A stretch of DNA of 64,000 bases from an uncultured Desulfospira sp. (GTDB lineage Bacteria > Desulfobacterota > Desulfobacteria > Desulfobacterales > Desulfobacteraceae): assembly GCA_963663165.1 (NCBI GenBank), contig OY760175.1, positions 2,720,001-2,784,000 on the forward strand, in the 5' to 3' direction. The position numbers and the translations under genes were made by a program. Under the pieces are notes generated by a model. It saw only the letters and a program-made list of their open reading frames with translations, had not been told where the DNA came from and did not search any database. Below, piece after piece: positions 2,669 to 30,766 of the stretch; position 1 is the first letter of the stretch, and each line of letters opens with the position of its first letter.

Positions 2669-2836
2669 TCATGATGGGTTTCCTTTCTGTTTTTTGTTTT
2701 TTGATTCTTGTTCCAAATATTCAATCAATTGGGTTTTCATCTGCGAGACCTTGAGCAGGCGCAGATATGCAACTTCAAGTTGATTTCGTGATAGGGATTT
2801 GATATCCACGGTTTTCAGTTTGATTGCTTCATCCAT
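2669..2836 (-). CDS. Small hypothetical protein, 55 aa (MDEAIKLKTVDIK...)
   Basis: Below ORF-track cutoff; start overlaps helicase end and stop overlaps next ATG (ATGA). Confidence 0.55.
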   Translation of the reverse strand: MDEAIKLKTVDIKSLSRNQLEVAYLRLLKVSQMKTQLIEYLEQESKNKKQKGNPS

Positions 2837-5228: not shown

Positions 5229-5443
5229 TCGGCCTCACTCATTACGACAAGGCGGTCATGGAGCCTGGACAGCCTGTTACTTTTCGGAAAAAAACGAATG
5301 GCCAGTTCGGCCACCCAGGGGTACAGGTGGCCGGCTGCTGATTTTTTGATATTTCCAATCTGAAAGCGCCCGGCCAGGCGCTTTTGGTTTTTGGGACGGT
5401 TATAGCGCATGGTCCTATGCCGAGAGGCAAACGCGGTTTGCAT
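5225..5443 (-). CDS. Hypothetical protein
   Basis: Overlaps both neighbours in the operon. Confidence 0.45.
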   Translation of the reverse strand: MQTAFASRHRTMRYNRPKNQKRLAGRFQIGNIKKSAAGHLYPWVAELAIRFFPKSNRLSRLHDRLVVMSEAE

Positions 5444-5603
5444 CTAGATATCTGTCTAACGCATCCTGGTCATAGCGGGGGGACCTGCCACCAACCAGGA
5501 TATAGTCCGGGCCTTTTCGCTGGTGCCTCCAGTTGTATAGGGTTTGTACTGCGATCCTGAGATAGTCCGCCGCCTCTTGAGTTGTCATGAGTTTTTTGTC
5601 CAT
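5415..5603 (-). CDS. Excisionase/AlpA-like HTH protein
   Basis: LMTTQEAADYLRIAVQTLYNWR...GPDY..RY. Confidence 0.85.
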   Translation of the reverse strand: MDKKLMTTQEAADYLRIAVQTLYNWRHQRKGPDYILVGGRSPRYDQDALDRYLDANRVCLSA

Positions 5604-5696
5604 GCCTAAAAATCCTTTCGGTTTTGGGGTATTGCCGTTTTTTACCGGCGTTTTGGAGAAGTATATTTTTGGATGGAGATATCGTCACCCGACATA

Positions 5697-5732
5697 GCGG
5701 TAAATCCATATAAAGTTATATAGATTTACCGC
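5697..5732. promoter_or_regulatory. Palindromic operator upstream of excisionase
   Basis: GCGGTAAATC-N16-GATTTACCGC. Confidence 0.5.
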
Positions 5733-5910
5733 CATATCCCTAAAATCGAATTATCCATTGATTTCAAATGGTTACAAATTTACATTTTTTATATAAAAAT
5801 TCAGCCAGAACGGCTGGACAAGAATAAACATGAAATGATTTAAATTAACGATGATTGTAGGACTACTTTGATGAGGGGGATGGTTCTGCAATGACTCCTG
5901 ATTAAACGTG

Positions 5911-5975
5911 CCCCAGGAAGGCGACCAGGAAACCGCCTGTTCGGTCCGGGTAGCTATTCCGGGCCTATCCTGGGG
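5911..5975. ncRNA. Candidate three-way-junction RNA (C4/CI-like)
   Basis: CCCCAGGA/TCCTGGGG closing stem encloses hairpins AGGCG/CGCCT and GGTCCGG/CCGGGCC; GC-rich island in an AT-rich intergenic region. Confidence 0.5.
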
Positions 5976-5982
5976 AAAGAGA

Positions 5983-6342
5983 TTACAGCCTTAATTCAAC
6001 CTGGAAATCCGTTGCGTTGACGATGGGCCGGACCATGCCTTTTTCCTTGATCAGATCAACAATCCCATAATTTGAAAGGGTTTTCAGTGTCCGGGAAAGG
6101 TTTGATTTTTTTCGCCCTGACAATGCTTCCAGTTCAACCAGAGACGCCGGGTGCCGGTCCCGGATCAATCTTAAAAGCTTTTGATTCTGGCCGCTCAAGA
6201 CCTGACCCAGGGATTCCATGGATTCAAACCATACCTTGGGTTCGTTCTTACGGGGCTTATATTCCCCCTTGGCAATGGCAATGGTCCGGTGCTTGTAATC
6301 TTCCTTTGACATGATGCCGATTTTCATGGTTTTGCTGGCCAT
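5983..6342 (-). CDS. HTH antitoxin-like regulator (HVO_A0114-like)
   Basis: VWFESMESL...PASLVEL..LSGRKKSNLSRTLKTL..YGIV. Confidence 0.75.
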   Translation of the reverse strand: MASKTMKIGIMSKEDYKHRTIAIAKGEYKPRKNEPKVWFESMESLGQVLSGQNQKLLRLIRDRHPASLVELEALSGRKKSNLSRTLKTLSNYGIVDLIKEKGMVRPIVNATDFQVELRL

Positions 6343-6346
6343 TCTC

Positions 6347-6700
6347 TTATCCTCTCAATAAATATTCATCCACAGCCGCCCAAAAATCTTCAAGCAATTG
6401 TCCGGCGGTTTCAAAAGAGTACGGTGCCACTTTATCCAAGTCGTGTTTATGGTCCCATGTGACTATGCGCCCGGTAAAGCCCTTTTTCCTGACCGGTTTC
6501 ACGGCATGGGCATTGTCAAATCCAATCACCCGGGTATTATATCTGTCATGCAAGGACAGGGAGTACCTTATTCCGTGTGGCGCATGTTGGTCCGGGTGAA
6601 TTGGCTTTGCGTTGAATTTTACCCAGTACCCGTTATCCATTGGAAAAATTTCACCGTCCAGATCCAGCAGGGTATCAAGTGAACCATATTTGCCATTCAT
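6347..6700 (-). CDS. DUF6516/TumE-like toxin
   Basis: PHGIRYSLSLHD...GFDNAH...WDHKH...LLEDFW; directly upstream of HTH gene. Confidence 0.7.
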   Translation of the reverse strand: MNGKYGSLDTLLDLDGEIFPMDNGYWVKFNAKPIHPDQHAPHGIRYSLSLHDRYNTRVIGFDNAHAVKPVRKKGFTGRIVTWDHKHDLDKVAPYSFETAGQLLEDFWAAVDEYLLRG

Positions 6701-6751
6701 GTTATCATCCGATGATAATTTGTCAAGGTTTGTCCGCCTGTTTTGGAAAAT

Positions 6752-7630
6752 TTAAAATCCAATTTTTCGTTTCGGGTTTTTATCATCGGCCAGGAGTTTA
6801 TCCAGGACAGAGAACACCACTTCGAACCGTTCGTCTGTTTGCTGTTTCAATTCTTCCACGGCCTTGCGCAGTTCCTCATGCTCGGCAATCATGTGGCGCA
6901 TTTTGGTAAAGGTCCTCATAATCTGTATGTTTGCTCGTATGGCCCGGTCACTGTTCAATATTCCGGACAGCATAGCAACACCTTGTTGAGAGTGATCACG
7001 ATATTTGATGGAAAGAGGCTTTATTTTTTGCAAGCTATCTTATGGAAATTTTTCACTCCCTTTGTCGTTCCTCATTTTTCACTATACTTTAGGGCCGATC
7101 GGTCCTCCTTCCGTTAACTTGAAAGAATCAACGATAAATGAGGGATAGATTTTTTGAATTAGATTTAATTACAGGTAGATATAAAATTCTTAGAGCGTAC
7201 CACCCCTCCCTTGGGTATCGTAAAAATTTGCTGGTTTGAGACATTTTTATCAACTTTCCCATCTACCCATGGGGGGTGGTGTGTCAAGCTATTGTTTCTT
7301 CTCCTCAGTTCCACCAAATAGCATGAAAACGTGTCCATCAAATATCGTGATTGCTCTCACTTGTTCAGTGAAGGCATATGGCATTTTTCTGATGCCGCCC
7401 CAACTTGATGTCACAATTTGTGACTTCAAGTTTTCAAACTCCGACCGGGTCAACTGAAACATAAAATCGTTCGGAAAACGCTTCATGTGCCTTTTGACGG
7501 CTTGGTTTAATACTCTGGTTTCAACGCCATAAAGATAGGCCAGGTCCCTATCCAGCATCACTTTTACACCCCTGATAAAGTAAATTCTACGTTCAATTTG
7601 ATCAACTATCGCAACACTGTTTTCATTCAT
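6752..7630 (-). pseudogene. ORF6N-domain DNA-binding (antirepressor-like) gene disrupted by a MITE
   Basis: IRGVKVMLDRDLA..YGV..LNQAVKR..RFP.DFMFQL...PYAFTEQ | GVAMLSGILNSDRAI; halves separated by 6987-7359. Confidence 0.9.
6987..7359. mobile_element. Non-autonomous MITE, 373 bp
   Basis: 26-bp terminal IRs TGAGAG(TG/CA)ATCACGATATTTGATGGA with 2 mismatches; 5-bp TSD CTTGT at 6982-6986 and 7360-7364. Confidence 0.9.
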
Positions 7631-7724
7631 TTTTGTTCCCATATCTATTTTGAGGTGACAATTTGGCACCTCAAGTTTATTTAGCCCATCTCATGGTTTT
7701 GGAGGTTACAATTTGTGATCTCCA
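7405..7724. repeat. Three related 25-bp palindromes
   Basis: 7405-7429, 7650-7674, 7700-7724; core GTNACAATTTGNNAY. Confidence 0.8.
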
Positions 7725-7726
7725 AT

Positions 7727-8890
7727 TTATTTATCCCCATGAAGGTTTACAACCTTTGAATCATCTTGTTTCTGCAGATATCCAGCTACTGCTTTACTGG
7801 CATCTTCAGATCCTTTTTTTAAAACCGTATCATTCAAGTGGGCATATCGCTGTAAAAGCTGTGGCGTTTTATGGGTGGTCAATTTTTGAAGGGTATACAA
7901 ATCAATTTTGCCGGAATTGACAGCCATTGTGGCAAAGGTATGTCTTAGGGAGTGTATCGGCCTTGTTTCCTTTGGAAGATTTGCAGCGACTTTGATTTTA
8001 TTCACCGGCTTGCTGATGCTTGACAGTTGCCCCCCATTTCGCCCAGGGAAAACATAATCACTGTCTGTCCGATAGGCCTTTTCTAAAACTGATCGGGCCA
8101 TATCATTCAAAGGAATAATTTGATCTTTCCCTCCTTTTGGTCCCAGGATAGAGATAAAACCTTTTTCAAAGTCAATATCAGACCATTTCAATTTAAATAG
8201 CTCTCCACGCCTCATCCCAGTGTAAAGCGCCATCAACATAATATTTCCAGCTAAGGGGTGGTCGTCTTGCTGGATCGCATCATACAAACGGGTTAATTCT
8301 TCCGGGCTCAAGGAATCATCTTTGATATTGTCAACTTTCGGCATTTTAACTTTAAACTGCAAATTTTTGCTAAGGCCAAGTTCAAAACCGTAGTTTGCAA
8401 TTCGTTTTAAAAGAGCCAAAACATGCTTCACTGTCTGAGGGGAATATTTTTTTAACAGCTCTCTTTTATGTCGTTCAACATCAAGGGCAATAATTTCATC
8501 CGGCTCTTTATTGCCGAACGGTTCTTTTATGTGCTGCTCGTATCGATTGTTATCTTTCGTGTAATTCAGATTTTTTTTTCTTTGGAGGGAATATTCTTTC
8601 CATAATCTGTCTATGGTGTATTTGCCTGCTTCGGCCTCTTTTTTTGCCTGTTCTTCGTCACGCTTCTCCTGATTGGTCTGTTGCTCACCGTCTATTCTCT
8701 GCCCCCGGAGAGCGGAAGCCCTGGCAGGGGTCATATCATCCTGATATTGACGGCCTGCTTTTTCTTCTACCATCTTGCCGCCTTTGCGGTATCGGATGTA
8801 ATAGATTTTTTCCGGTTTACCCTGGGCGGATATTCCCTCAAGAAAGAAAACTCCGGCATACTTTGTTTTAAATCTTTTCTTCGCCGCCAT
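7727..8890 (-). CDS. Phage-type tyrosine integrase
   Basis: TGMRRGEL, PKGG, HSLRHTFA, LTTH...RYAH. Confidence 0.93.
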   Translation of the reverse strand: MAAKKRFKTKYAGVFFLEGISAQGKPEKIYYIRYRKGGKMVEEKAGRQYQDDMTPARASALRGQRIDGEQQTNQEKRDEEQAKKEAEAGKYTIDRLWKEYSLQRKKNLNYTKDNNRYEQHIKEPFGNKEPDEIIALDVERHKRELLKKYSPQTVKHVLALLKRIANYGFELGLSKNLQFKVKMPKVDNIKDDSLSPEELTRLYDAIQQDDHPLAGNIMLMALYTGMRRGELFKLKWSDIDFEKGFISILGPKGGKDQIIPLNDMARSVLEKAYRTDSDYVFPGRNGGQLSSISKPVNKIKVAANLPKETRPIHSLRHTFATMAVNSGKIDLYTLQKLTTHKTPQLLQRYAHLNDTVLKKGSEDASKAVAGYLQKQDDSKVVNLHGDK

Positions 8891-9168: not shown

Positions 9169-9486
9169 ACTGTAAATAAAGGGCTTTTGGGCCTTACTCC
9201 CGGCCCGTTATCCCAGCAAAAAATTAAATTAACCAGAATCAGCCCACGGCTGTTTTTGTACCAATGCCATCCGACGCATTCGCACAAAGAGAATTCAGGC
9301 CTTTTTCTCTGCTGAACCACCCTGTCCACAAAAAGGATACCCGCCGGGTTGATAATTCAGGGCCTTCCCCCCACTTTGCTGAAGTTTTCTGACCGACAAA
9401 GGTGACGGATGCCAATTCATGCATTATGGTTTGAAAAAGAGGCGGCACTGAAAAAAGTCAGCCGCACACAACAAAAGGGGGAACCC

Positions 9487-10986
9487 ATGAAACAAACCAC
9501 TGCCAGATCAATGCTTAAAGCCGGATTTGAAAACAGCTTTGCCGATCTTCCCCAGGACTTTTATGAGCCGTGTACCCCTGAACCCGTACCGGGCGCGGTA
9601 CTGCAAAAATTCAATGAAGATCTGGCCCGGAAACTGGGCTTTGACTTTACCCGGGAAACGCCGGAACTGACGGATTACCTGTCAGGCAACCGTCTTTTTG
9701 CCGATGCCGATCCCATTGCCATGGCCTATGCCGGACACCAGTTCGGCGGGTTCGTCCCGCAGCTCGGGGATGGCCGGGCCATCCTTCTCGGTGAAAAAGT
9801 CACCCCAGACGGCCACCGGTATGATGTTCAGCTCAAGGGCTCGGGCCGGACCCGGTTTTCCCGGGGCGGCGACGGCAAGTCCCCGTTAGGGCCTGTGATC
9901 CGGGAATATCTTGTCAGCGAGGCCATGCATGCCTTGGGGGTTCCCACCACCCGGGCCCTTTCTATTGTTTCAACAGCAGAAACCATCCTGCGCCCGGACG
10001 GGGCCCATCCCGGCGGCATTCTGACCCGCATCGCACCGGGCCTGGTCCGGGTGGGCAGTTTTGAATACTTTGCCGCCCGGGGCGATGACAAGGCTGTCCG
10101 AAGACTTGCCGACTACGTGATCGCCCGCCATTATCCGGACATAGCGGGAAAAAAAGACCGGTACAGGCACCTGTTTGAATCTATTGCCTTACGACAGGCC
10201 GGGCTGGTGGCCCAATGGATGCATCTGGGGTTTATCCACGGGGTGATGAACACTGACAACACCGCCATTTCCGGAGAAACCATCGACTACGGGCCCTGCG
10301 CCTTTATGGATGATTATGACCCCAACCGGGTTTTCAGTTCCATCGACCTTGGCGGCAGATACCGGTATGCCAACCAGGGCGCCGTCATGAAGTGGAATTT
10401 GAACAGTCTGGGGGCCAGTTTGCGCCCGCTTCTCGGGAAAACCAGCGCACAGGCAACAGCTGTCATTGATGGTGTTCTTTCCGCCTTTGAGCAGGCTTTT
10501 CTTCAAAACTGGCGCAACGGCATGCTCAAAAAAATCGGCATAGAATCCCCGACGGATGAGGACACGGTCCTTCTGGGGGAGCTGCTTGATCTCATGTTAA
10601 ACCAAAAGGCCGATTTTACCCTGACCTTTCGCTATTTGTCCGATCACACCAGAGACGGTGCGGCCATGACACCGGAATTTAAAGGTCTTTTCAAAAAATC
10701 AGAGGCACCTGAAAACTTTCTTGTCAAATGGCGAAAACGGATCAGCAAAGATAATCCCCCTGAAACAATTAAGGAAAGGATGGACCGGATCAACCCCCTT
10801 TTTATCCCAAGAAATCACCAGATTCAAAAGGCCATTGAGGATGCTGAAACCAACGATGATTTCACCCGGGTACACCAGCTGGCTCAAGTTCTCAAGCACC
10901 CTTTCACGGAACAGCCGGATTTGATGGCGTACGCCAATGCACCCGCCACCGAAGAACGGGTGACCCGGACCTTTTGCGGGACGTGA
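9487..10986 (+). CDS. selO: Protein adenylyltransferase SelO (YdiU)
   Basis: YAGHQFG, QLGDGRA, QLKGSG, HGVMNTDN, IDYGP, C-terminal TFCGT. Confidence 0.95.
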   Translation: MKQTTARSMLKAGFENSFADLPQDFYEPCTPEPVPGAVLQKFNEDLARKLGFDFTRETPELTDYLSGNRLFADADPIAMAYAGHQFGGFVPQLGDGRAILLGEKVTPDGHRYDVQLKGSGRTRFSRGGDGKSPLGPVIREYLVSEAMHALGVPTTRALSIVSTAETILRPDGAHPGGILTRIAPGLVRVGSFEYFAARGDDKAVRRLADYVIARHYPDIAGKKDRYRHLFESIALRQAGLVAQWMHLGFIHGVMNTDNTAISGETIDYGPCAFMDDYDPNRVFSSIDLGGRYRYANQGAVMKWNLNSLGASLRPLLGKTSAQATAVIDGVLSAFEQAFLQNWRNGMLKKIGIESPTDEDTVLLGELLDLMLNQKADFTLTFRYLSDHTRDGAAMTPEFKGLFKKSEAPENFLVKWRKRISKDNPPETIKERMDRINPLFIPRNHQIQKAIEDAETNDDFTRVHQLAQVLKHPFTEQPDLMAYANAPATEERVTRTFCGT

Positions 10987-18128: not shown

Positions 18129-20102
18129 ATGAAACGCTTTTTGAAAGGCCTGGCAATCCCGGGCGTTTTTTTACTGGCCGCAGGGTTAATGCTCTGCGGA
18201 CCTGCGGGTGCCGTGGACTGTTCCGGGTGTTATGGTGAGGCGCTGTCTTTTTGCGGGATCGAAACCCCATTAGAAAATGAGGAATGCTTTCATTCAGAAT
18301 ACAGCTTCTGCCTGGAGTTCTGCTGTAAGGATGGATGTTATATGGATGTTGTTGATCCATGCCAGGTGACCTGTTATGAAAATTATTATTTATGTGAAAG
18401 TGCCTGCCATGACGATTGTGAGCAGCAATATTGTGGAGAAGAAGGGTGCGGGGAGGGATACGATCCATGTATGGGAGAGTGTACCTATTCCTGTGAACAG
18501 ACACGGGATGATTGCGGTTATCAGTGTGAATATGACAACCCGGAATTTGATTTATGTGTCACTGAGTGCCAGTCAGGAGGAGACATTGACGGGGATGGTG
18601 TTAGCGACGCCATCGACAACTGCGTTTACATCCCTAACCCGGGCCAGGATGATGCCGACGATGACTTCATCGGAGATGCCTGTGACAACTGCAGCAGCGT
18701 ATCCAATCCTTACCAGGAAGACGATGACGATGATTATGCCGGCAATGCCTGTGATCTGTGCCCTTGGGTATACAGCAATGCGCCTTATCAGGACACCGAC
18801 GGAGACGGGGAAGGAGATGCCTGTGATCCGGACATTGATGGGGACGGGCACCTCAATGAGTCGGACAACTGCCCCTTTGTATCCAACTATTTGCAGGAAG
18901 ATGCAGACGGGGACGGCATCGGCGATGCCTGCGATCTGACAGACATCCGGATCAGTGCAGCCTCTTATCAGACCCTGGACCTGTCCATGAAAAAGGCACC
19001 GGAACTGGACAGCCCGGAAAACGGCCATGCACTCTATGACATTTCTCCGGTCAGTCCTTTCATGGCCGCGGCGTTTGATATCAGCAGCGATGATTCAGAA
19101 CGGGTGGTGGGATGGTATGCCCCTGATACCGCGTTTGACAATGAACGGCGCGGATTTGTGTGGGGAGATGATTTTGACACCGATTCCAACACAGATGATG
19201 CCGTCCGGATTAAAATATCGGAAGAAAATGCTGACAATACCATGTTATGGGGAATCTACAACGACTCAAATTATGTAGGGCAGTACACTTTGGACGGTGT
19301 AAAACAAGGGGTGTGGGTACAACGGTCTTACGCACCGGAATTAGGACTTTATTCCTATTCATACCAGCCCCTGGTCCCGGATTTATCCGGTGCATACTCC
19401 AGCAGCGCCTGGGATTATGCTGTCGTGGACGGCTCCGTCAGCATTGTGGGCCGTTATTATAGCCAGACAACAGGGCAGGATCATGGCTATCTATACCAGC
19501 GGACGTACAGCCCCAACCTTACGGAAACCTATACCGCCATTAGCATGCCCGGGGCCAGTGGCACCTATGGCAGCGGCATTAACGACAACGGGCAGATTGT
19601 CGGGTACTACAGTGATGTGTCGGGTACCCACGGGTTTTTGTTTGACGGAACCAACTATGTCTCCATCAATGTTCCCGGGGCCGTCAGCACCCTGGCCTAC
19701 CGTATCAATAACCAGGAAGACATTTGCGGCTACTTTTTAGGAACGGACGAACAATACCACGGGTTTGTCTATTCAGGCACCCAATTTCAGACCTTTGACA
19801 TTGAAGGGGCCAAGGACACCTTTGCCTTTGGCCTCAATGATGACGGTAAAATTACCGGATACTTCAGAGATAAACTGGGCACCCACTCGTTTGTGGCACA
19901 GCCCCTTCCTGAAACTACTGTCTGCATAGGAGATTTTGACAATGACAATGACGTGGACAGTGAAGACCTTGGTGTTTTTGCGGGACTTTTCGGGGTGAGC
20001 GGCAGTGAAAGCCCTGCAGACATTGCCGCTCCTTCGGACAATGATGTGGACGGCCTGGATTTGGCCAAGTTTATCACCTGCCTGACCACGGGATGTCCCT
20101 AA
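18129..20102 (+). CDS. Secreted protein: Cys-rich domain, thrombospondin type-3 repeats, HAF-like repeats, dockerin-like tail
   Basis: Signal peptide; DxDGDGxGDACD and DNC repeats; GIND.GQIVG...HGF repeats; [10 protein letters not shown]...DNDVDGLDL. Confidence 0.85.
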
Positions 20103-21754: not shown

Positions 21755-21817
21755 TTAGGGGGTTAGGCTGAAGGGGGACACTATCCTTCAGTCTAACAGC
21801 CTTCAGTCTTCAGCCTA
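21755..21817. repeat. TTAGGCTGAAG / CTTCAG(T/C)CT repeat array
   Basis: Seen directly; similar arrays near 16555, 23925-24030 and 28815-28890. Confidence 0.75.
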
Positions 21818-23912
21818 CTTTTTCCAAACTTGGAAAAAGTTTCATGTCCGTATGGGGCAGGAACTGGGCCTGGATAAATTCGTCCATGAACCGGCTGGAA
21901 CTTGAAAAATCCACATAGGTCATGGTGTTGGAAATTTCCACGGCCTTTCTTCTGTAATCCCTTGACATCAGGGCCATGTAGGCCCCGGCCACAGAGCTGT
22001 TGCCCATGTATTTGAATTTGTCCCGGTCAATGTCCGGCAACAGGCCGATGCTCACCGCTTTGTCAATGTTCAGGTACTGGCCGAATCCGCCGGTGATGAT
22101 AAATTGTTCCACCATGGAAAAGTCCATGCCGATGCCTTCAAGAAGAGAAACAAAACCGGCATAAACGGCCGCCTTGCTCAGCACCAGGCTGCGGATATCA
22201 GATTCCGTGAAAATAATGTCGTCACTGGTATCTGCGTTTTCACTGGATTCAATGATAAAGGCCGGTTCCTCTTTAAACCGGGTCATCCTCGGATGGATGT
22301 CATATAAAAGAAACTTTCCGTCCTGGCCGATGACGCCCTTGTCCAGCATTTCCGAGAGCAGATCAATCATGCCTGACCCGCAGATGCCCCGGGCCGGTTT
22401 GTTCTCAACCGTTGAATAGTCCGGGTCAAAGGTGTTGGGGTTGAGGCTGATTTTTTCAATGGCACCGTCCTCGGCCCGCATGCCGAAACGGATCCCGCCC
22501 CCTTCAAAGGCAGGCCCGGCCGAACAGGCCGCAGTCATGAGAAATTCTTTAGAGCCTAAGACAATCTCACCGTTGGTACCGATGTCGATAAACATGGTTA
22601 AGGGGTCTTTATCGTAAAACCCCGTGTAAAGGACGCCCGAGACAATATCCCCGCCCACATACCCGGCAGGACCGGGCATGATGAATACCCCGGCATAATG
22701 GGCGGCTTTCAGCCCGATTTCCCCGGCCTTGATAATGGGGAATTCCGACACCGTGGGGATATAGGGTTCCCGGCGGATATAGGCGGCTTCAATTCCCAAG
22801 GCCAGGTGAACCATGGTGGTATTGCCGGAGATGACCACGTTCTCAATCTGGTGATGGCTCTCTTCAAGGCTGTCCAGGGCCCTTAAGGTCAGGTTGTTGA
22901 TGGTGGAGATGGCCATTTTTTTAAGCTTGGCCACCCCGTCCTTTTCAGAGCAGACGATCCGGTTGATCACATCATCCCCGCAGGCGGCCTGGCTGTTATG
23001 GCCCGAGGCCCCGGAGATGATTTTCCCGGTGACCATGTCCACAATATAGACCACAATGGAGGTGGTTCCGAGATCCACGGCAAGCCCTAAGGACCTTGAG
23101 GCCTCATGGGCGGGTTTGACCTCCACAATTTCAGAGGAACATTTTTTCACCAGGACAGACACTTCCACATGCCAGTTGTCTTTCCGCACGGCCTGGGTCA
23201 GCTGCCGCATGACCCGGATGCTGGCGCTCATCCTTTCAATATCACAGCCGTTCTGTTTGAGACCCCGCTTCAGGCGCTCAAGATCGCTGACCGTATCATC
23301 AAGGCTTGGGGGCGCCATTTCCAGAATATATTTTTTCACCATGGGGTCCGGTGTCAGGACCAGGCCGGACAGTTTTTCAGTGGCCTCTTTGCCCATACCC
23401 ACGGCCTTGAGCTTTTTCTCTAAGGTCTCTTCAGGAATCCGGACCGTCACATCGCCCGTGACAATGGCCTGGCAACTTAAAACCATGCCTTTTTGAAGCT
23501 CCATATCCGTAAGCAAAGAGGTATGGGTTCCGTTTTTAACACTGCCGGATTCCACGATCAATTTGCATTTGCCGCAGGAGCCCTTGCCGTTGCACGAGGC
23601 ATTGACATAGACATCGGCTTTCCCTGCCGCTTCCAGCAGGTTGGTCCCGGCAGGGACCTTGACGGTCACATCCTGGGGCTGAAAACTAACCGAACAGGCC
23701 GAAGAATCATCGTCAGCGGCCTGGGCTGCTGCGGCTTTTTTTTCAGTTTTGTCAAACCCCTTTTTGGAGATGAAATGGATGGGGCAGGAAGATCTATATT
23801 TACAATATATATCCGGGTCCCGGCACTCCAGGCAGTCTTCGCACAGATAGATCTGGTGCTTCATACAAAGATAATTGGTTTCGCGGTCAGGATGATTGAT
23901 GCAAGTGCCCAT
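21810..23912 (-). CDS. ASKHA-family corrinoid reductive activator (RACo-like) with 2Fe-2S domain and extra N-terminal Cys/His domain
   Basis: CNGKGSCGKC, DLGTT, SGNTTM, GYVGGD, DIGTNGE, CSAGPAFEG, GICGSG. Confidence 0.9.
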   Translation of the reverse strand: MGTCINHPDRETNYLCMKHQIYLCEDCLECRDPDIYCKYRSSCPIHFISKKGFDKTEKKAAAAQAADDDSSACSVSFQPQDVTVKVPAGTNLLEAAGKADVYVNASCNGKGSCGKCKLIVESGSVKNGTHTSLLTDMELQKGMVLSCQAIVTGDVTVRIPEETLEKKLKAVGMGKEATEKLSGLVLTPDPMVKKYILEMAPPSLDDTVSDLERLKRGLKQNGCDIERMSASIRVMRQLTQAVRKDNWHVEVSVLVKKCSSEIVEVKPAHEASRSLGLAVDLGTTSIVVYIVDMVTGKIISGASGHNSQAACGDDVINRIVCSEKDGVAKLKKMAISTINNLTLRALDSLEESHHQIENVVISGNTTMVHLALGIEAAYIRREPYIPTVSEFPIIKAGEIGLKAAHYAGVFIMPGPAGYVGGDIVSGVLYTGFYDKDPLTMFIDIGTNGEIVLGSKEFLMTAACSAGPAFEGGGIRFGMRAEDGAIEKISLNPNTFDPDYSTVENKPARGICGSGMIDLLSEMLDKGVIGQDGKFLLYDIHPRMTRFKEEPAFIIESSENADTSDDIIFTESDIRSLVLSKAAVYAGFVSLLEGIGMDFSMVEQFIITGGFGQYLNIDKAVSIGLLPDIDRDKFKYMGNSSVAGAYMALMSRDYRRKAVEISNTMTYVDFSSSSRFMDEFIQAQFLPHTDMKLFPSLEKVG

Positions 23913-24032
23913 GATCTCTCCTTTGTTAGGTGGTTAGGCTGAAGGTGTTTGTTGAAGTTTATTAAAGTTATCCCGTACCCTTCAGTCTTCAGTCTAAACG
24001 CCTTTATTAGGGTTATAGGCTGAACCTAAGGT

Positions 24033-24509
24033 TTATAGCTTTTTAATTAATTCTTCAAGTTCTTTAAGGTCGGCCTCGTCAGGATGGCCTATGGCTGCCG
24101 GAGCATCGGGAAGCCATCCCGGAGGTTCAGGCTTCTGGCTTACCTTTTCAAGGACCTTGGGGTTCACCTCACCCTGGCAGGTGAATACGCCGGCCACATC
24201 TGCATTATTGGTCATCTCCACAGCATGCTGTATGGCGTTTTTCACATGATCCGAGCCCCTGGCCGCACCATGGGTGGCAAACAGAAAAATTCGCGACTGG
24301 CTGCCAAGGCCGGCCAGAAACGCCTGGGATTTGGGATCGGGCTTGCCGGCCATGAGCCAGAATCCCACCGCCACCAGGTCGTATCCGTCTGGGTCCGGGG
24401 CCTGGTCAACGGGAAAAAGGTCTTTTCCCCCATCCAGGGCATCATATATTTTTTCGGCAAGCTTCTGGGTGTTGCCGCTTTGGCTGGAATAAACAATCAA
24501 TGTTTTCAT
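24033..24509 (-). CDS. Flavodoxin-family protein
   Basis: YSSQSGNTQKLA, GFW, FATHGA, GHPDEADL. Confidence 0.88.
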   Translation of the reverse strand: MKTLIVYSSQSGNTQKLAEKIYDALDGGKDLFPVDQAPDPDGYDLVAVGFWLMAGKPDPKSQAFLAGLGSQSRIFLFATHGAARGSDHVKNAIQHAVEMTNNADVAGVFTCQGEVNPKVLEKVSQKPEPPGWLPDAPAAIGHPDEADLKELEELIKKL

Positions 24510-24617: not shown

Positions 24618-26693
24618 TTAGTTTTCAGTCTCCAGCTTCCGGTCTCCAGTCTCCGGTTTCCGGTCTCCTGTTTCATACCCCATTGGCAGCTTCTTGAACC
24701 GGCCGCCGTAAATAATGGGATCACCCTTATACCCCAGGGCTTTAAAGTTAATATAATCGGTTTTGTTGATCAGGTGTTCCACATCCCTTCCCTTGGATTT
24801 CATAAAGGAAAAGTCGGTTCCCTTCTGGGCAATGGCTTTAAAATCCACATTCCGGTTATCCTGGTGGCACCGGTTGCAGGTTTGATCGCCCTTCAGGCTT
24901 TCATGGCACTGGACACAGGACAGGGCCATGTCTGCGGGCATGACTTCATGCTCTAAGCGCCAGTACATCCAGGTCTCTTTCCATTTGTATGATCCGGAGT
25001 AGGGCAGGTCCACGGCGTTCATGCCGTCCTCAAAGGCCTTGTCCCAGTCCAGGTTTTTCCAGTAAGCGGTTTTGTCCTCCTTGTTTCTGGGAAACAGGTG
25101 GGGAATCAGGATGGTTTCATGGTCCGCATCCACGGCCTGGATGCCTTTCATGATCTTGAAGGGCGTGATTTTGGACGAGGGATCCTTCATAGAGCCCACC
25201 GGTGTCGTCAGGTTGATGACAGCGGCATTGAGATCCACGGTATCCCCCATGAGAACCCGGTCCATATATCCTGAATACCACTGATAATCCGGGACAGCGG
25301 ATTCCTCCCATTTAAACTCGCCTTTTTTCCAGTCATAGTCCGGCTTTCCGTACTTATCCATCTGGGGTTTTCTCTTTTTGTCCCCGGCCTTGGACCAGTC
25401 CCAGAAGGTCTTGGTGGGCTTGCACTTGGCAAACACAGGGGAATGGCAGACATTGCAGTCCAGGGTTTTGCTGTGGCTGTTCAGGTGATGATCTAAGAGG
25501 CCGCCGCTGTAATGGGGCGCCTCACCATGACAGTTTTCGCATGACACCGCCCCCTCGGCCACAGGGACCGACGTACTGCGGCCGGAAATTTTATGGTTCC
25601 GGGTCTTATGGCATTCAGTACAGGCAAAATCATATCCGCCCATGTGAATGTCACAGCTTCGTTCAGGGTTGAGCAGCTGCCGGGACATGTCGGCGTGTTT
25701 GATGGCGTCCCCGCCCCCGCCGTTAAAGTGGCAGGAACCGCAGGAAGCCCGGCCGGAATGCCCCACGTTCTGGGCCACCATTTTCAAATCCACCTCTTTT
25801 TTGGGCATGCCGGCTCCCGGCGGGTCTTTCTGGTAAGTGCCCGTGGTGTCGTGGCAGACCAGGCAGTCCATTTTTGTCTTATCGGTAAAATCAAAGTTTG
25901 CGTCTTTCCATCCATATCCGGCATGACAGCTTGTGCAACGAGCCTCGTTGCTGATGGGGCTGATTCAATAGTTGTTCAGGGCCGTGGTGCCCTTGCCGTG
26001 CAGGATGTCCTTTCGATGCCCCGTGGTATAAGGTGAAGGGCCTTTCCAGAGCCAGTGGGCGCTTGTCAGCATGTCTTCTGCCTGGGTGTCGTGGCACCTG
26101 AGGCATTCTGCCGTAACCTGAAAGGGATCAGCACCGTCGGGCAGGTTGACCAGTTCTTTGTGGTTGGGAACATTTTTTAAATGGCATCCCTTGCAGTCTG
26201 TGGGCCCTTTGGCCTCATCCTTGTGGCATTCCATGCACTGCTGGTGGTAGGCGGCTTTCAGCCCGATCCGTTCGGGATGGTCTTCATCAAAGGCCTCCTG
26301 GTGGCAGGCCGAACACCGTGTGGTTTCTAGGGCAGCCTCATCTTTTGGCCGGTAATGATGGCATTTGGTGCAGTCCTGAATCAGGGCCGCATGCCGTTTA
26401 TGGGCAAACCGTACCGGTTCGTAATGGTCTTCTCTTTGTTTGATGACGGGGCTGTCCAGGAGAAAATAAACATCGGTAATATCTGATAAAGACAGGCCCT
26501 CTTTTAAAAGACGCATCTTGCGGGCGATCTGGTCTTCATTTTTGTACTCACTGACAAAGGGGACCGTTTCCAGGGTCCTTGCCTTGGCCGCTTCCTGGTC
26601 CGGGGCACGCCAATCCTTGGCGGCCAGGCAGACAGCGGTTTGCAAAAGCAGCAAACTCAACATTATGAGCCCAACCGTTAAGTTCCTATTCAT
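24618..26693 (-). CDS. Predicted selenocysteine-containing 13-heme cytochrome c (tetraheme c3-like domain plus octaheme tetrathionate-reductase-like domain), 691 aa
   Basis: ORFs 25965-26693 and 24618-25871 share a frame, separated only by TGA (25965-25967) in GK..NNY*ISPISNEARCTSCHAGYG; 13 CxxCH; signal peptide. Confidence 0.85.
25927..25964 (-). promoter_or_regulatory. Candidate bacterial SECIS element
   Basis: GCAACG-AGGCT-CGTTGC stem-loop starting 14 nt after the TGA, G near loop start; lower CAGC/GCTG stem. Confidence 0.7.
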
Positions 26694-27886
26694 GATACCT
26701 CCTTGGTTGTTTGCAAAACAGGTAAATAGGTTACAACAATCCTGTAAATGAACATCAGCGTGGCAATCAGGCCGAAGGTCACCATCATTTCCCCGATGGA
26801 GGGGAAATAGCCCGGATCACTCAAGGGCGGTTTAAACCCCACAATGAACACGTTGATCCGGTTGAGCACCACACCGCCCACAATGAGGGTGGCCGCTGTG
26901 AAAACCCCTTTTCGGGAGGTTCTTATTTTTTTGGCCAGCAGCATGGCCCAGGGAATCATAACCCCGAATACCATTTCCACGATAAAGGAATTGGTCTGGG
27001 CGGTCCCGTCCAAAAGATAGGTCCAGGTGCCCCGCACTGCCATATCCCCGATTTTCAGGGCCATGTAAATTCCCAGGAGGACAATGGTGATCCGGGTCAG
27101 CGGCGACAGGATATTCATTTCAGAGTCCAGTTTAAACGAGGAGGTGGCAAGGGTGGTTTCAAATACCACCATGGGATACCCCACGGCAAAGGCCGAGGTT
27201 AAAAACAGCAGGGGCAGGATGGGCGTGTACCACAGGGGATGCAGTTTGGTGGGGGCAATGAGCATCAAAGACCCAAGGCTTGACTGGTGCATGCAGGACA
27301 GCACCACCCCCAGGATGATCAATATCCACATGATTTTGTCCACTATGGCGTCTCCGATTTTCAGGACCGCTTCGATCAGGCCGTTGAGTCCGGCAAAGGG
27401 GCCGGGCAGGTTCACCCGCCCCTTGAACTGTTCGGCCACGATGGGGAAAAATTCAAGGTAAAGCACATTCAGGTAGCACATGACACACATGGCCACCTCA
27501 AATAGAACCGAGTTGGGGTTCCAGTTGAACATGGGCTTCCAGATGGCCCAGGACCGGCCAATGTCCACCATGAGCCCCAAGACCACAAAGGTGTAGCCAA
27601 GGACTGCCGTCAACAGGGCCGGCCGGGTGACGGGTTCGTAATAATGGCGGCCGAAGATATGGGCCAGGGCGGCGGTGGTAAATCCGCCGGCGGCCAGGGC
27701 CACCCCGGTGGCCACATCCACGCCGACCCACAGGCCCCAGGGCCTGGCCGTACTCAGGTTGGCCACATAGCCGATACCGCCGGTAAACCGGGCCATGATG
27801 GCGGCAAAACCAGCCGCCATAAAGGCCAGCATGACCAGGACCCCCGGGGTCCAGAAGGGCCTGTTTAAGGGACTTGCTTTATGCAT
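26690..27886 (-). CDS. NrfD/HybB/HmcC-family integral membrane subunit
   Basis: [43 protein letters not shown]. Confidence 0.9.
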
Positions 27887-28802
27887 GGCCGCCTCCTTTC
27901 TCGTCTTTATTTTTGCCGTCAGCCTTGTTGAAACCGAACATGGCAACCCCGAGCAGCCCAAACAGGGCGATGGGGGACCACAGGTAGCTGAACAGGGAAT
28001 GCTGGATGGTTTCGGACAGCTCTGGAGACGGTTTGTCCGGCAGGACCGGCAGGTTGACCTTTTCAAAGGGAACCGCTGAAATATAAAGCCAGGACGTGCC
28101 GCCCACCTCTTTTTCCCCGTAAATATGGTTAATGTATTTGCCCGGGTTTTGAGTTACCCGTTTTCTGGCCACCTTGAGCAGGGTCTCTCTTTTGCCGAAG
28201 GTCAGGGCTTCGGTGGGGCAAATGGTGGCGCACCCGGGAAGCCCGCCGTCTTTTGAGATCCGGTCGTAGCAGAAGGTGCATTTCATGACCTTGGGGGTGA
28301 CCGGGTCAAAATATTCATAGGCCGGGATTTCAAAGGGGCAGGCCACCATGCAGTACCGGCACCCGATGCACTTGTCGGCATTGTACCGGACAGCGCCGGT
28401 TTCATCTTTGGTCAGGGCCCCCACAATACAGGCCGACACGCAGGCCGGGTCCTGGCAGTGCATGCACTGGACCTTGGCAAAGGTGGGCAACGGTTTGTCA
28501 AACTGGTCCAGCTGCCCTGTGAAATACCGGTTGACCACGGTATAAGCCTTGTCATCGGGCCGTCGTTTTTTCTCAAAGATGGTACACTGGCAGTTGGGCC
28601 GTTCCGGGGCCGGCAAATGGTTCACCTGGGCACAGGCTTCCTCGCATTTGCGGCAGCCCACGCACCGGGTCAGGTCCACCAGGCACCCGTAAGGATCCGG
28701 GGGCGCTTTGGACTTCCAGGCGTTGGCAGATGAAGGCGTTGCCGCGACGGTTGCGCCGGCGGCCCCCATGAATTTGAAAAAACTTCTTCGGGTCAGTTGC
28801 AT
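27879..28802 (-). CDS. Tat-exported multi-[4Fe-4S] protein (HybA/HmcB/NrfC-like)
   Basis: TRRSFFK Tat motif; CVGCRKC, CMHC..PAC, CIGCRYC..ACP, KCTFC; C-terminal TM. Confidence 0.92.
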
Positions 28803-28895
28803 TGGACCTCCATTGGTTAGGTTGTTAGGCTGAAGGGGTTTAGGCTTAAAGGGTGTCAATCCCTTCATGCCTATCAGTCTTCAGTCTATCCACCT

Positions 28896-29132
28896 TTAGC
28901 TTCCGGTTCCCTTCCGGATACCAAGGCAGATACAATCGGGTTGTTTCCGGTGATATAGCAGTTCATCCTCTGACCGCAGGATGATGGTGGCCAGGGTTTT
29001 TGCCACCTCCTCATCTTTCAGGATGACCTCAAGACGTTCACCTTTTGCCATGGCGCTCAGACGGCTTTTGCACTTGAAAAGATCAAGGGGGGAAACAATG
29101 CCCCGCAAATCCAGAACAAGTTTTGCCGCCAT
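28896..29132 (-). CDS. TusA/SirA-like protein lacking the canonical Cys
   Basis: LDLRGIVSPL...GERLEVIL; GGAGG RBS. Confidence 0.7.
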   Translation of the reverse strand: MAAKLVLDLRGIVSPLDLFKCKSRLSAMAKGERLEVILKDEEVAKTLATIILRSEDELLYHRKQPDCICLGIRKGTGS

Positions 29133-29174: not shown

Positions 29175-29190
29175 AGCAATGGGTGTGCCA
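29175..29190 (-). promoter_or_regulatory. Sigma54 -24/-12 promoter
   Basis: TGGCAC-ACCCA-TTGCT on the minus strand, ~40 bp before the tusA-like start. Confidence 0.88.
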
Positions 29191-29261: not shown

Positions 29262-29317
29262 CACATGTTAAAATTTGTTTTGACACATGTTAAAATTAAA
29301 CATATTTTTAACATGTG
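29262..29317. promoter_or_regulatory. Putative activator (UAS) sites
   Basis: CACATGTTAAAATT at 29262 and 29284; inverted TTTTAACATGTG at 29306-29317. Confidence 0.65.
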
Positions 29318-29368
29318 TTAAATTGGCCGTTGCAAACATAAACAGGCTGCCGGATCAGGGGGGATGGA

Positions 29369-30766
29369 ATGGACGAACATGAGATGAACGTCTTCTGGAA
29401 AAAGATTGTGAACACCATCAACGACGGCCTGTTGTTCATTGGGCCGGACGGGTCCATTTTAATGGTGAACAAAGCCTTTGAAACCCTGACCGGGTATGCT
29501 TCGGATGAGGCCATCGGCATGTCCTGCCGGATCCTGGGGTGCGATGCCTGTGAACAGGCCCTGAAAACCGGCAAAACATCGGTCTGGTGCAAGTTGTTTG
29601 AACCGGGCCGGCAAGGGATGAACAAGTGCCGCTGTCTGCTCAGGCGAAAGGACGGCAGTTTTTTCCCGGTACTCAAAAATGCGTCCATCTTTAAAGATGA
29701 AAACGAGAATATACTGGGCGTTGTGGAGACCCTCACCGATATATCGGAAATAGAACGCCTGGATGAAAAGGTTCATATGCTGTCCCGTCAATACGGGAGG
29801 GACAGTGATTTTTACGGTATGGTGGGCAAATCACGGCAAATGGAGGCCGTGTTTGAAATGGTCCGCAAGGCTTCTGATTCGGCCGCCCCGGTGATCATCT
29901 TGGGGGAAAGCGGATCAGGCAAGGAGCTGGTGGCCGATGCCATCCACCTGTCCGGGGCCAGAAAAAAAGGCCCCTTTATCCGGCTCAACTGCGCGGCCCT
30001 GAACCCGTCGATTCTTGAAAGTGAGATGTTCGGCCATGCCAAAGGGGCTTTCACCGGGGCCTATGACAACCGCATCGGCCGGTTTGAGGCGGCGGACACG
30101 GGCAGCTTTTTTTTAGATGAAATCGGCGACATGCCCCTGCCCTTGCAGACCAAGCTGCTGCGGGTCCTTGAATCCGGGCAGTTTGAACGGGTAGGGGAGA
30201 TCGATCCCGTCCGGGTGGATGTCAGGATCATTACCGCCACCAACAAAAATCTGGAAGACCTGATCCAAAAAAATGAATTCCGGCAGGACCTGTTTTACCG
30301 GATCAATGTTTTGCCCATTCATCTGCCTCCCTTGAGGGAAAGAAAAGAGGACATCCCGTTGCTGGTCAACGCCTTTATCGGGCGGCTGAACCAGGCGTCG
30401 GGCAAAACCGTCACCAGGGTGAGCCGGGAGGCCATGGACCAGTTCATGGACCACACCTTTCCGGGCAATGTCCGGGAGTTAAAAAATGCTTTGGAGTACG
30501 CCTTTGTCACGGCCGACGGCCCGGTGATCCGTCTGGAACATCTGCCCAAATCCATGGCCCCGGCCGGGCCGGAACCACAGGTTTCTTTGCCGGAAACCAC
30601 CCCCCCGGAAAAGATTTTAGATGAAAAACAGCAGCTCATTAACGCCCTGAAAAAAACCAACGGAAATCAGACCCAGGCGGCCCGTCTGTTAAAGGTCAAC
30701 CGGGTCACGGTCTGGAACCGCATGAAAAAATACGGCATTGATCTTAAAAAAACATTGGCATGCTGA
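29369..30766 (+). CDS. PAS-domain sigma54-dependent activator
   Basis: GESGSGKE, GAFTGA, LDEIG, FRQDLFYRINV, Fis HTH; Cys-rich PAS. Confidence 0.95.
   Translation: MDEHEMNVFWKKIVNTINDGLLFIGPDGSILMVNKAFETLTGYASDEAIGMSCRILGCDACEQALKTGKTSVWCKLFEPGRQGMNKCRCLLRRKDGSFFPVLKNASIFKDENENILGVVETLTDISEIERLDEKVHMLSRQYGRDSDFYGMVGKSRQMEAVFEMVRKASDSAAPVIILGESGSGKELVADAIHLSGARKKGPFIRLNCAALNPSILESEMFGHAKGAFTGAYDNRIGRFEAADTGSFFLDEIGDMPLPLQTKLLRVLESGQFERVGEIDPVRVDVRIITATNKNLEDLIQKNEFRQDLFYRINVLPIHLPPLRERKEDIPLLVNAFIGRLNQASGKTVTRVSREAMDQFMDHTFPGNVRELKNALEYAFVTADGPVIRLEHLPKSMAPAGPEPQVSLPETTPPEKILDEKQQLINALKKTNGNQTQAARLLKVNRVTVWNRMKKYGIDLKKTLAC

What the first reader, a model, noticed from the sequence alone, without database searches (positions are those of the whole stretch)
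24618..26693. Hidden selenoprotein: 13-heme cytochrome with UGA at the active-site Cys position
Seen: two cytochrome ORFs share one frame and are separated only by TGA at 25965-25967. Read-through gives HGKGTTALNNY-U-ISPISNEARCTSCHAGYG and restores a CxxCH missing from both ORFs. A GCAACG-AGGCT-CGTTGC hairpin begins 14 nt downstream. There are 13 CxxCH in total (4 in a c3-like N-domain, 8 in the Otr-like core, 1 extra). Knowledge: octaheme tetrathionate reductases have GK...NNFC...RCxxCH and GGGDxxKH (here GGGDAIKH) around the catalytic heme, and this Cys is what the TGA replaces; spacing and loop G fit the bacterial SECIS model. Inference: a periplasmic Sec-containing multiheme enzyme with a fused tetraheme wire, likely annotated as a pseudogene or two genes. 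Sec multiheme cytochromes are known in Geobacter; I cannot tell whether this family or fusion has been reported.
Basis: partly seen in the sequence, partly recalled or inferred. Interest (0 to 1): 0.92.

Follow-up and report, generated by a model that had tools for sequence, protein, structure and literature searches.

The report
Selenocysteine-containing 13-heme respiratory cytochrome
What looks like two broken cytochrome genes is one gene for a 13-heme respiratory enzyme whose internal "stop" codon almost certainly encodes the rare amino acid selenocysteine at a catalytic-site position; databases already flag this enzyme family as selenium-containing, but its chemistry seems untested.

Summary
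Confirmed, on the minus strand (26693→24618): one 691-codon frame, one TGA (codon 243), 13 CxxCH. It passes the octaheme tetrathionate reductase (OTR) model TIGR04315 (490 vs 375 bits); TGA aligns with OTR Cys64, and Lys56 is kept. Of 70 homologous loci covering the site, 59 have TGA, 11 TGY, none another codon; all TGA forms keep the hairpin (58 letter for letter), no Cys form does. selA, selB, selD and tRNA-Sec are present. The gene ends a sigma-54 operon with Fe-S and NrfD-type membrane subunits, like the Ohc complex. Best reading: periplasmic, quinol-fed Sec enzyme cleaving S-S bonds (Sec 0.96, substrate class about 0.55). Not new as a family: a 2026 review lists TIGR04315 as a GenBank-annotated selenoprotein, and this scan found it earlier on other DNA. 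The Cys 13-heme form is in databases; the Sec form was split in 4 of 4 cultured species checked. I found no bench study.

The parts
24618..26693 (-). Gene for a 691-aa, 13-heme c-type cytochrome with one in-frame TGA (Sec243)
   Evidence: TIGR04315 489.8 bits vs cut-off 375; AlphaFold pLDDT 86, Foldseek top hit 1SP3 E 1.3e-43, TM 0.85 on the target
26619..26693 (-). Predicted export signal peptide (about residues 1-25)
   Evidence: single hydrophobic segment from residue 4, basic N-terminus; cleavage site inferred, no signal-peptide predictor run
26178..26429 (-). Tetraheme cytochrome c3 domain (residues 89-172; CxxCH 108, 127, 153, 167)
   Evidence: PF02085 over cut-off; His98, 101, 113, 150 kept in 115-116 of 116 relatives
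24897..26162 (-). OTR octaheme core (residues 178-599)
   Evidence: 1SP3 E 1.7e-117, all 8 CxxCH aligned
25992..25994 (-). Lys234, equivalent of OTR Lys56, the ligand of catalytic heme II
   Evidence: alignment; invariant in 116 of 116; Lys56 role from PMC3769277 passage
25965..25967 (-). TGA = selenocysteine 243, equivalent of OTR Cys64
   Evidence: TGA 59, TGY 11 of 70 loci
25935..25951 (-). SECIS hairpin: 7-bp stem, GGC loop, 20 nt from UGA to loop
   Evidence: six codons invariant in 58 of 58 TGA loci, broken in 11 of 11 Cys loci; fits the model in PMC13188914
25923..25937 (-). CxxCH of catalytic heme II (253-257), missing from both table-11 ORFs
25422..25655 (-). Cys347 (25655-25653) and Cys424 (25424-25422): extra pair absent from Shewanella OTR, probably a disulfide
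   Evidence: both present in 109, both absent in 7, never one alone, of 116; disulfide inferred
24864..24878 (-). Thirteenth CxxCH (606-610) in a C-terminal extension
   Evidence: invariant in 116 of 116
26690..27886 (-). NrfD/HybB/HmcC-type integral membrane subunit (398 aa, about 9 hydrophobic segments); its stop overlaps the cytochrome start (ATGA)
   Evidence: PF03916; below HybB and HmcC cut-offs; upstream in 66 of 72 loci; fused to the cytochrome in P0099, P0123, P0125; start and segments
27879..28802 (-). HybA/HmcB-type Fe-S subunit (307 aa) with twin-arginine signal, 16 invariant Cys (four 4Fe-4S clusters inferred) and a C-terminal membrane helix
   Evidence: in 65 of 72 loci
28896..29132 (-). 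TusA-fold protein (78 aa) lacking the CPxP cysteine
   Evidence: PF01206 29.0 vs cut-off 28.6; in 26 of 72 loci; no Cys or TGA at the motif position in the copies extracted
29175..29190 (-). Sigma-54 (-24/-12) promoter of the operon
   Evidence: only exact match in the window, 0.06 expected; motif on the operon strand in 38 of 48 loci vs 0 on the other strand and 1 in a control stretch
29262..29322 (.). AT-rich inverted/direct repeats, likely activator binding sites
   Evidence: role inferred, conservation not tested
29369..30766 (+). Divergent one-component sigma-54 activator (PAS + AAA + HTH)
   Evidence: in 50 of 72 loci

Best explanation
One gene, one protein. UGA243 is decoded as selenocysteine by SelB bound to the hairpin just downstream (shown by sequence comparison; 0.96). 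The product is exported, matured with 13 c-hemes, and is the periplasmic subunit of a three-part membrane complex with the co-transcribed Fe-S and NrfD-type subunits under a sigma-54 activator (gene order, overlap and fusions shown; physical complex inferred; 0.85). Electrons pass menaquinol -> NrfD-type subunit -> four Fe-S clusters -> c3 domain and heme 13 -> OTR heme chain -> Lys-ligated heme II (inferred). Sec243 replaces the one free Cys of the OTR catalytic site. As a selenolate it attacks an S-S bond of a sulfur intermediate (tetrathionate, trithionate, thiosulfate or polysulfide), and the Se-S adduct is then reduced from heme II (inferred by analogy with MccSep, TsdA and SoxAX; about 0.55). 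The host is a dsrA-bearing sulfate reducer, so the complex would let it respire or detoxify sulfur-cycle intermediates.
For: Sec: TGA/TGY only in 70 loci; six codons frozen at synonymous sites in 58 of 58 TGA loci while equally conserved downstream Cys, His, Gly and Tyr codons vary; the hairpin goes with Ala where Shewanella OTR and the Cys forms have Pro (NEAR vs NEPR/NWPR); in a second set found by protein search alone, 16 of 16 TGA loci have the same 17-nt hairpin against 1 of 41 Cys loci; selA/B/D and tRNA-Sec in the genome, selA in 35 of 35 TGA genomes tested. [quoted passage not shown] Complex: NrfD 66 and Fe-S subunit 65 of 72 loci, 5 of the 6 loci without NrfD having no upstream DNA; NrfD-cytochrome fusions; sigma-54 promoter. 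Sulfur substrate: OTR reduces tetrathionate in vitro as cited; otr transcripts rose 36-fold with tetrathionate in sediment microcosms; Sec is the nucleophile in the heme enzyme MccSep; this genome has no NrfA match and no NapA over cut-off; a TusA-fold gene leads the operon.
Against: No expression, protein or activity data here. In Shewanella ANA-3, deleting otr did not affect tetrathionate respiration, and in-vitro OTR activity is reported as mainly nitrite and hydroxylamine reduction with very low tetrathionate activity. The residue is not universal: 12 of 116 13-heme relatives and 22 of 82 distant representatives have neither Cys nor Sec. Close relatives use Cys although they keep selA (10 of 10 tested), so Sec is dispensable. 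The TusA-fold protein lacks its sulfur-carrying Cys and is in only 26 of 72 loci. The microcosm result had p = 0.0488 and concerns an Acidobacteriota otr. I could not measure the Sec-heme distance: the model holds no hemes, pLDDT near the site is 83-88. Three of 58 TGA loci (L007, L058, L063) gave short frames, cause not examined.
Confidence: 0.55

Rival explanations
1. Same selenoprotein and complex, but it mainly carries electrons between periplasmic cytochrome c3/formate or hydrogen oxidation and the quinone pool, as assumed for Ohc, Nhc and Hmc; Sec only tunes or protects heme II.
For: Fe-S subunit + cytochrome + membrane subunit under a divergent one-component sigma-54 activator is the layout reported for ohcBAC and DVU3142; Ohc is tabulated as a TpIc3/menaquinone complex; the c3 domain resembles the last domain of HmcA; a clade has lost the Cys.
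Against: Lys ligand, heme II motif and the DxxKH motif are kept in essentially all relatives, which a plain wire would not need (MmcA, the wire-like OTR relative, lost heme II and the Lys). A costly SECIS is kept in many lineages.
Confidence: 0.17
2. A nitrite/hydroxylamine reductase used for detoxification; substrate binds the heme II iron and Sec plays a side role.
For: These are the strongest in-vitro activities reported for OTR. The genome has no NrfA match, so it could fill that gap.
Against: No NapA over cut-off in the genome; nitrite reduction at Lys-ligated hemes uses no thiol in NrfA/ONR (catalytic Lys, Tyr, His, Arg), so it does not explain selection for Sec.
Confidence: 0.13
3. A sulfur enzyme of another kind or direction: sulfite reductase, or thiosulfate/sulfide oxidase feeding quinone during disproportionation.
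For: The ANA-3 otr deletion accumulated slightly more sulfite and the authors suggest sulfite reduction; TsdA and SoxAX use an active-site Cys oxidatively.
Against: MccSep, the Sec-heme precedent, does not reduce sulfite; the host has DsrAB; Foldseek shows no real likeness to MccA (E 0.9).
Confidence: 0.12
4. TGA is a true stop: a pseudogene, or two separate proteins.
For: Public databases hold the halves as separate proteins; the second ORF has a usable ATG.
Against: Same codon is TGA or Cys only, across several orders; frozen SECIS tracks TGA; the C-half has no signal peptide and would lose heme II; both halves are under purifying selection (70-95% identity in most windows).
Confidence: 0.03

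Closest known systems
[quoted passage not shown]
   Same: Same family model, one Sec per protein. 8-heme TGA forms with the same site and hairpin were found here.
   Different: The review row gives no motif, reference or architecture; I could not open the record, so I cannot say whether it has 8 or 13 hemes. The 13-heme Sec form was split in 4 of 4 cultured species checked.
Octaheme tetrathionate reductase OTR of Shewanella oneidensis (SO4144, PDB 1SP3)
   Same: Eight aligned CxxCH, Lys56, Cys64 position, DxxKH motif, fold.
   Different: Sec for Cys64; N-terminal extension plus c3 domain (OTR instead binds a separate tetraheme STC); 13th heme; extra Cys pair; own Fe-S and NrfD-type partners.
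[quoted passage not shown]
   Same: Same full architecture, 52-86% identity; same operon in all 11 Cys loci.
   Different: Cys and Pro/Trp-Pro in place of Sec and the SECIS-bound Ala; annotated whole.
Ohc complex (ohcBAC, DVU3143-3145) with activator DVU3142 of Desulfovibrio vulgaris
   Same: Fe-S subunit, multiheme cytochrome and membrane subunit behind a sigma-54 promoter with a divergent one-component activator.
   Different: Gene order here is Fe-S, membrane, cytochrome; 13 hemes rather than 8; homology to OhcA and OhcC not tested because no D. vulgaris sequence was retrieved.
MccSep/ExtKL (GSU2937-2936) polysulfide reductase of Geobacter sulfurreducens
   Same: Periplasmic multiheme cytochrome split by an in-frame UGA in annotation; Sec beside a catalytic heme.
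   Different: Different family: five hemes, His/Cys-ligated heme, Sec in a C-terminal Ig-like domain, no tetrathionate activity; NF040886 was not among the NCBIfam hits.

Membership tests
OTR family (TIGR04315) | Score above the curated HMM cut-off | tested here: met
   489.8 vs 375 bits
OTR family (TIGR04315) | Eight CxxCH in register with 1SP3 | tested here: met
   five further motifs lie outside the core
OTR family (TIGR04315) | Lys ligand of heme II (Lys56) | tested here: met
   Lys234, 116 of 116
OTR family (TIGR04315) | Free Cys of the catalytic site (Cys64) | tested here: met
   position 243 is TGA (Sec); Cys in 104 of 116 relatives
OTR family (TIGR04315) | OTR fold | tested here: met
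   predicted model vs 1SP3, E 1.3e-43, TM 0.85 on target
OTR family (TIGR04315) | Tetrathionate, nitrite or hydroxylamine reductase activity | not testable with these tools
   needs purified enzyme
Bacterial selenoprotein | In-frame UGA aligned with Cys in homologues | tested here: met
   59 TGA, 11 TGY of 70
Bacterial selenoprotein | bSECIS: 4-16 bp stem, 3-9 nt loop with G in first two positions, 16-37 nt from UGA, MFE <= -7.5 | tested here: met
   7 bp, GGC, 20 nt, -12 kcal/mol for 45 nt
Bacterial selenoprotein | selA, selB, selD, tRNA-Sec in the genome | tested here: met
   all over cut-off; anticodon UCA
Bacterial selenoprotein | Selenium in the protein | not testable with these tools
   needs 75Se or mass spectrometry
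MccSep/ExtKL (NF040886) | Five hemes, His/Cys-ligated heme, Sec in a C-terminal Ig-like domain | tested here: not met
   13 hemes, Sec ten residues before heme II, no NF040886 hit
Ohc complex | Fe-S + multiheme + membrane subunit with sigma-54 promoter and divergent activator | tested here: met
Ohc complex | Octaheme cytochrome and gene order ohcBAC | tested here: not met
   13 hemes; order Fe-S, membrane, cytochrome
Ohc complex | Sequence homology to OhcA/OhcC; heme b in the membrane subunit | not tested
   no D. vulgaris locus among the 80 kept
Hmc complex | 16-heme HmcA; HmcB and HmcC equivalog cut-offs | tested here: not met
   66.5/400, 345.5/420, 284/550 bits

The most novel reading that the evidence does not exclude
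The Sec form shows that the free Cys64 position is the nucleophile of OTR, that OTR-family enzymes are physiologically S-S-cleaving sulfur enzymes rather than nitrite reductases, and that many marine Desulfobacterales carry an undescribed quinol-linked 13-heme selenoenzyme complex for respiring tetrathionate or polysulfide: a second, independent Sec-heme catalytic design (open Lys-ligated heme) beside MccSep, with one 17-nt SECIS reused across 8- and 13-heme subfamilies and toggled to Cys many times.
Probability: 0.35. Interest if true: 0.75.

Novelty: new member of a known kind. Interest (0 to 1): 0.43.

Why it matters
The physiological role of OTR has never been established. Sec usually marks the catalytic nucleophile, so a natural Sec at Cys64 points to the residue and the chemistry to test, and cultured pairs exist: TGA forms in Desulfosarcina variabilis, D. 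widdelii, D. alkanivorans, Desulfamplus magnetovallimortis and Desulfocicer vacuolatum; Cys forms in Desulfospira joergensenii, Desulfobacter vibrioformis and D. curvatus. For annotation, a common energy complex of sediment sulfate reducers (TGA pattern in 17 of 36 same-family genomes) is cut in two and named 'cytochrome c3'. The surprise is limited because the family is already listed as a selenoprotein.

Tried and rejected
Sequencing error or pseudogene: rejected. Loss of Sec machinery as the cause of the Cys forms: rejected, selA in 10 of 10 Cys genomes tested (10 of 11 Cys loci). Recombination of the junction segment: 20-codon windows against 9 loci showed no clear break, third positions near saturation; undecided. 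One Sec clade: rejected by a constrained-tree test (42 Sec of 154 rows, delta lnL 978, AU p 0.002 with only 2000 replicates), but nested Cys reversions alone would give that, so it does not prove several origins. A second Sec in the TusA-fold gene: none seen. A second OTR copy in the genome: none, only three small c3-like hits. Expression: no RNA holder listed. No complex prediction was obtained, so the partnership rests on gene order, overlap and fusions. D. vulgaris Ohc was not retrieved. The comparative-genomics paper on sulfate-reducer complexes that I recall defining Ohc and Nhc was not held, and the OTR structure paper (Mowat 2004) was seen only as cited by others. BSepDB main text has no mention of the family; its database and supplements were not searched and may list it. 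A terminator scan after the gene found nothing on the gene's strand. The first tree run returned no answer and was redone.

Full report
1. Observation. The finding is on the minus strand. Positions 26693 to 24618 give 691 residues with one TGA, at codon 243; under table 11 this is two ORFs of 242 and 417 aa. There are 13 CxxCH motifs, and the one at 253-257 falls between the TGA and Met275. A 7-bp hairpin with a GGC loop starts at the 14th base after the TGA. The fold alone is modest (z -1.85), but only 2 of 2962 long TGA-ended stretches in the genome combine such a hairpin with a long open continuation: this gene and an Fdh-like gene. Contigs of two studies carry the TGA without differences.

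2. What the protein is. Residues 89-171 match cytochrome c3; 189-599 pass TIGR04315 at 489.8 bits against 375. Against PDB 1SP3 (Shewanella OTR, E 1.7e-117) all eight heme motifs align; by my count along that alignment Lys234 = Lys56, position 243 = Cys64, 253-257 = heme II motif 74-78. The predicted model (pLDDT 86) finds 1SP3 first. A passage in PMC3769277 gives Lys56 as ligand of heme II; a supplementary figure legend of bioRxiv 10.1101/2023.04.20.537704 lists motif 2, the lysine and 'the cysteine residue' as features of the catalytic site, without a number (figure not seen). Cys64 is the only non-motif Cys in the aligned residues 4-416, so I take it to be that residue.

3. The TGA is selenocysteine. 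A protein search of species genomes confirmed 214 relatives, kept the best 80 and gave 72 loci. My motif matched 69: 58 TGA, 7 TGC, 4 TGT. Of the other three, L033 also has TGA, with a GUC loop, and L029 and L072 match only from residue 323 on. The six codons that form the hairpin are identical in 58 of 58, whereas the next Cys, His, Gly and Tyr codons vary freely at synonymous sites; none of the 11 Cys loci can form the 7-bp stem (3-5 pairs). The TGA forms read NEAR, the Cys forms NEPR or NWPR like Shewanella, so the RNA signal appears to dictate one amino acid. The element meets the four constraints of the bacterial SECIS model given in PMC13188914. The genome has selA, selB, selD (itself with a TGA) and tRNA-Sec over cut-off; selA is in 35 of 35 TGA genomes tested (35 of 59; one in two pieces). 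Three TGA loci gave short frames that I did not examine.

4. Spread and history. An exact DNA pattern (TGA plus hairpin) hit 119 or more stretches, including Desulfovibrionales, Desulfobulbales, a Holophagae and a Phycisphaerales record; among them were 52 uncut 13-heme and 18 uncut 8-heme genes (hairpin fixed by the pattern). As a check free of that bias, a protein search with an 8-heme member gave 80 loci: 57 matched my motif, 16 with TGA, all 16 with the same 17-nt hairpin, against 1 of 41 Cys loci; the other 23 are one more Cys form, 20 Cys-type members of a distant subfamily and 2 truncated matches. The exception, L209, has TGT with the hairpin and Ala intact, as expected of a recent Sec-to-Cys change. 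In trees built without the site region, Cys forms nest several times inside the Sec-rich 13-heme clade; a Cys form from a Desulfospira record is sister to the window protein in one tree (support 0.93) and near it in the other. Sec forms sit in three separate parts of the OTR tree and are not one clade, but I cannot separate repeated gain, segment transfer and old origin with many losses. Cys genomes keep selA (10 of 10). The nearest named relatives place the window in Desulfobacteraceae; 17 of 36 same-family genomes carry the TGA pattern, the two same-genus genomes do not.

5. Surroundings. Upstream on the same strand lie an NrfD-type membrane subunit whose stop overlaps the cytochrome start, a twin-arginine Fe-S subunit with 16 invariant Cys, and a TusA-fold gene; a PAS-AAA-HTH sigma-54 activator points the other way. 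These are in 66, 65, 26 and 50 of 72 loci. A perfect -24/-12 promoter sits at 29190-29175 and a like motif is on the operon strand in 38 of 48 loci against 0 and 1 in two controls. Three database proteins fuse NrfD to the cytochrome. PMC4641369 describes the same regulatory layout for ohcBAC and DVU3142 in D. vulgaris (passages). The TusA-fold protein lacks the CPxP Cys. The genome has dsrA, no NrfA match and no NapA over cut-off, at 96.7% completeness.

6. Mechanism. Shown by sequence: recoding signal, heme count, OTR site residues, operon. Inferred: export, a three-subunit complex, flow from menaquinol through Fe-S clusters and the added hemes to heme II, and attack of the selenolate on an S-S bond followed by reduction from heme II. 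The analogy is MccSep, where Sec is required for polysulfide reduction beside a His/Cys heme (PMC13510729; outline, passages and Discussion read). For a sulfur role: otr rose 36-fold with tetrathionate in microcosms, p 0.0488 (PMC8528874 passages). Against: otr deletion did not affect tetrathionate respiration in Shewanella ANA-3, in-vitro activity is mainly on nitrite and hydroxylamine, and the physiological role is called unestablished (PMC12949373 passages); 12 of 116 13-heme relatives and 22 of 82 distant representatives lack Cys at the site. I give 0.96 to Sec, 0.85 to the complex, about 0.55 to the whole with S-S chemistry.

7. What is known. Table 1 of PMC13188914 lists TIGR04315 as a selenoprotein family with one Sec, example WP_331457571.1, source 'GenBank annotated' (passages). 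Of the best 120 protein hits (3955 at E <= 1e-50 among 8000 scored), 114 could be scored at the site and 111 of those have 13 CxxCH; many are named as OTR-family cytochromes. So neither the Sec family nor the fusion is unseen. Yet for 4 of 4 cultured TGA carriers checked both halves stand as separate proteins, often named cytochrome c3. Ten literature searches in the open library returned no study of a Sec-OTR or of this 13-heme complex; subscription papers are mostly absent. Other papers seen as passages only: PMC13326102 (no hits), PMC8840924, PMC4429474, PMC6491731, PMC9250108, PMC4484225, PMC4911364, PMC11492766. Mowat 2004 and Atkinson 2007 were seen only as citations; no supplements were read, and those of BSepDB and the review may bear on novelty. 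Earlier notes of this scan report the same 13-heme gene and 8-heme relatives in other genomes.

8. Verdict. Real, well supported, and a member of the OTR family and of the bacterial selenoproteins by every feature testable here. It works like OTR in fold and site, like MccSep in proposed chemistry, like Ohc in layout. New member of a known kind; interest 0.43, mainly because it makes the open question of what OTR does directly testable with cultured Sec/Cys pairs.

Noticed in passing
window 25655-25653 and 25424-25422 (-): Cys347 and Cys424, absent from Shewanella OTR, are kept or lost together (109 both, 7 neither, 0 single of 116): probably a disulfide; 5 of the 7 losses are in the clade lacking the site Cys.
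   Followed up: partly
L209 (Desulfatitalea record): TGT at the Sec site with the SECIS hairpin and Ala still intact: looks like a recent Sec-to-Cys change.
   Followed up: partly
P0103, P0107-P0114, P0119-P0121: A clade of 13-heme proteins has Leu, Ala or Thr at the site and an altered GGG loop but keeps Lys, His and the KH motif: possibly another substrate.
   Followed up: partly
window 24635-24675: The last codons of the gene overlap an interspersed repeat with 43 other hits in the genome, giving a non-conserved low-confidence tail.
   Followed up: partly
window 28815-28850: A second interspersed repeat between the TusA-fold and Fe-S genes, 59 other hits in the genome.
   Followed up: no
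window 28896-29132 (-): TusA-fold protein without the CPxP cysteine in all copies extracted; role unclear, perhaps regulatory.
   Followed up: partly
G000:C1:6426402 (+), 1061009-1061740 (-), 4859732-4860658 (+): Other in-frame TGA genes in the genome: two molybdopterin-enzyme (Fdh-like) genes, one with the same GGC-loop hairpin, and selD.
   Followed up: no
window 21810-24509 (-): Flavodoxin-like and RACo (corrinoid activator) genes follow the cytochrome; near it in only 8 and 16 of 72 loci.
   Followed up: no
P0099, P0123, P0125; P0122: NrfD-cytochrome fusion proteins of about 1050-1090 aa, and a 16-heme protein with two OTR cores.
   Followed up: partly
window 172-8890: Two tyrosine integrases (172-1191, 7727-8890) and a primase-helicase (2829-4478): likely an integrated element.
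   Followed up: no
window 9409-10986 (+) and 18129-20102 (+): A SelO-family adenylyltransferase, and a TSP3-repeat protein with a weak hit to an Omp28-related selenoprotein model (65 vs 200 bits); neither checked for TGA read-through.
   Followed up: no
L245-L275 (20 loci): A distant Cys-type OTR subfamily (about 35% identity) in Desulfobacterales keeps GK..NN[FY]C but has a different stretch around heme II.
   Followed up: no
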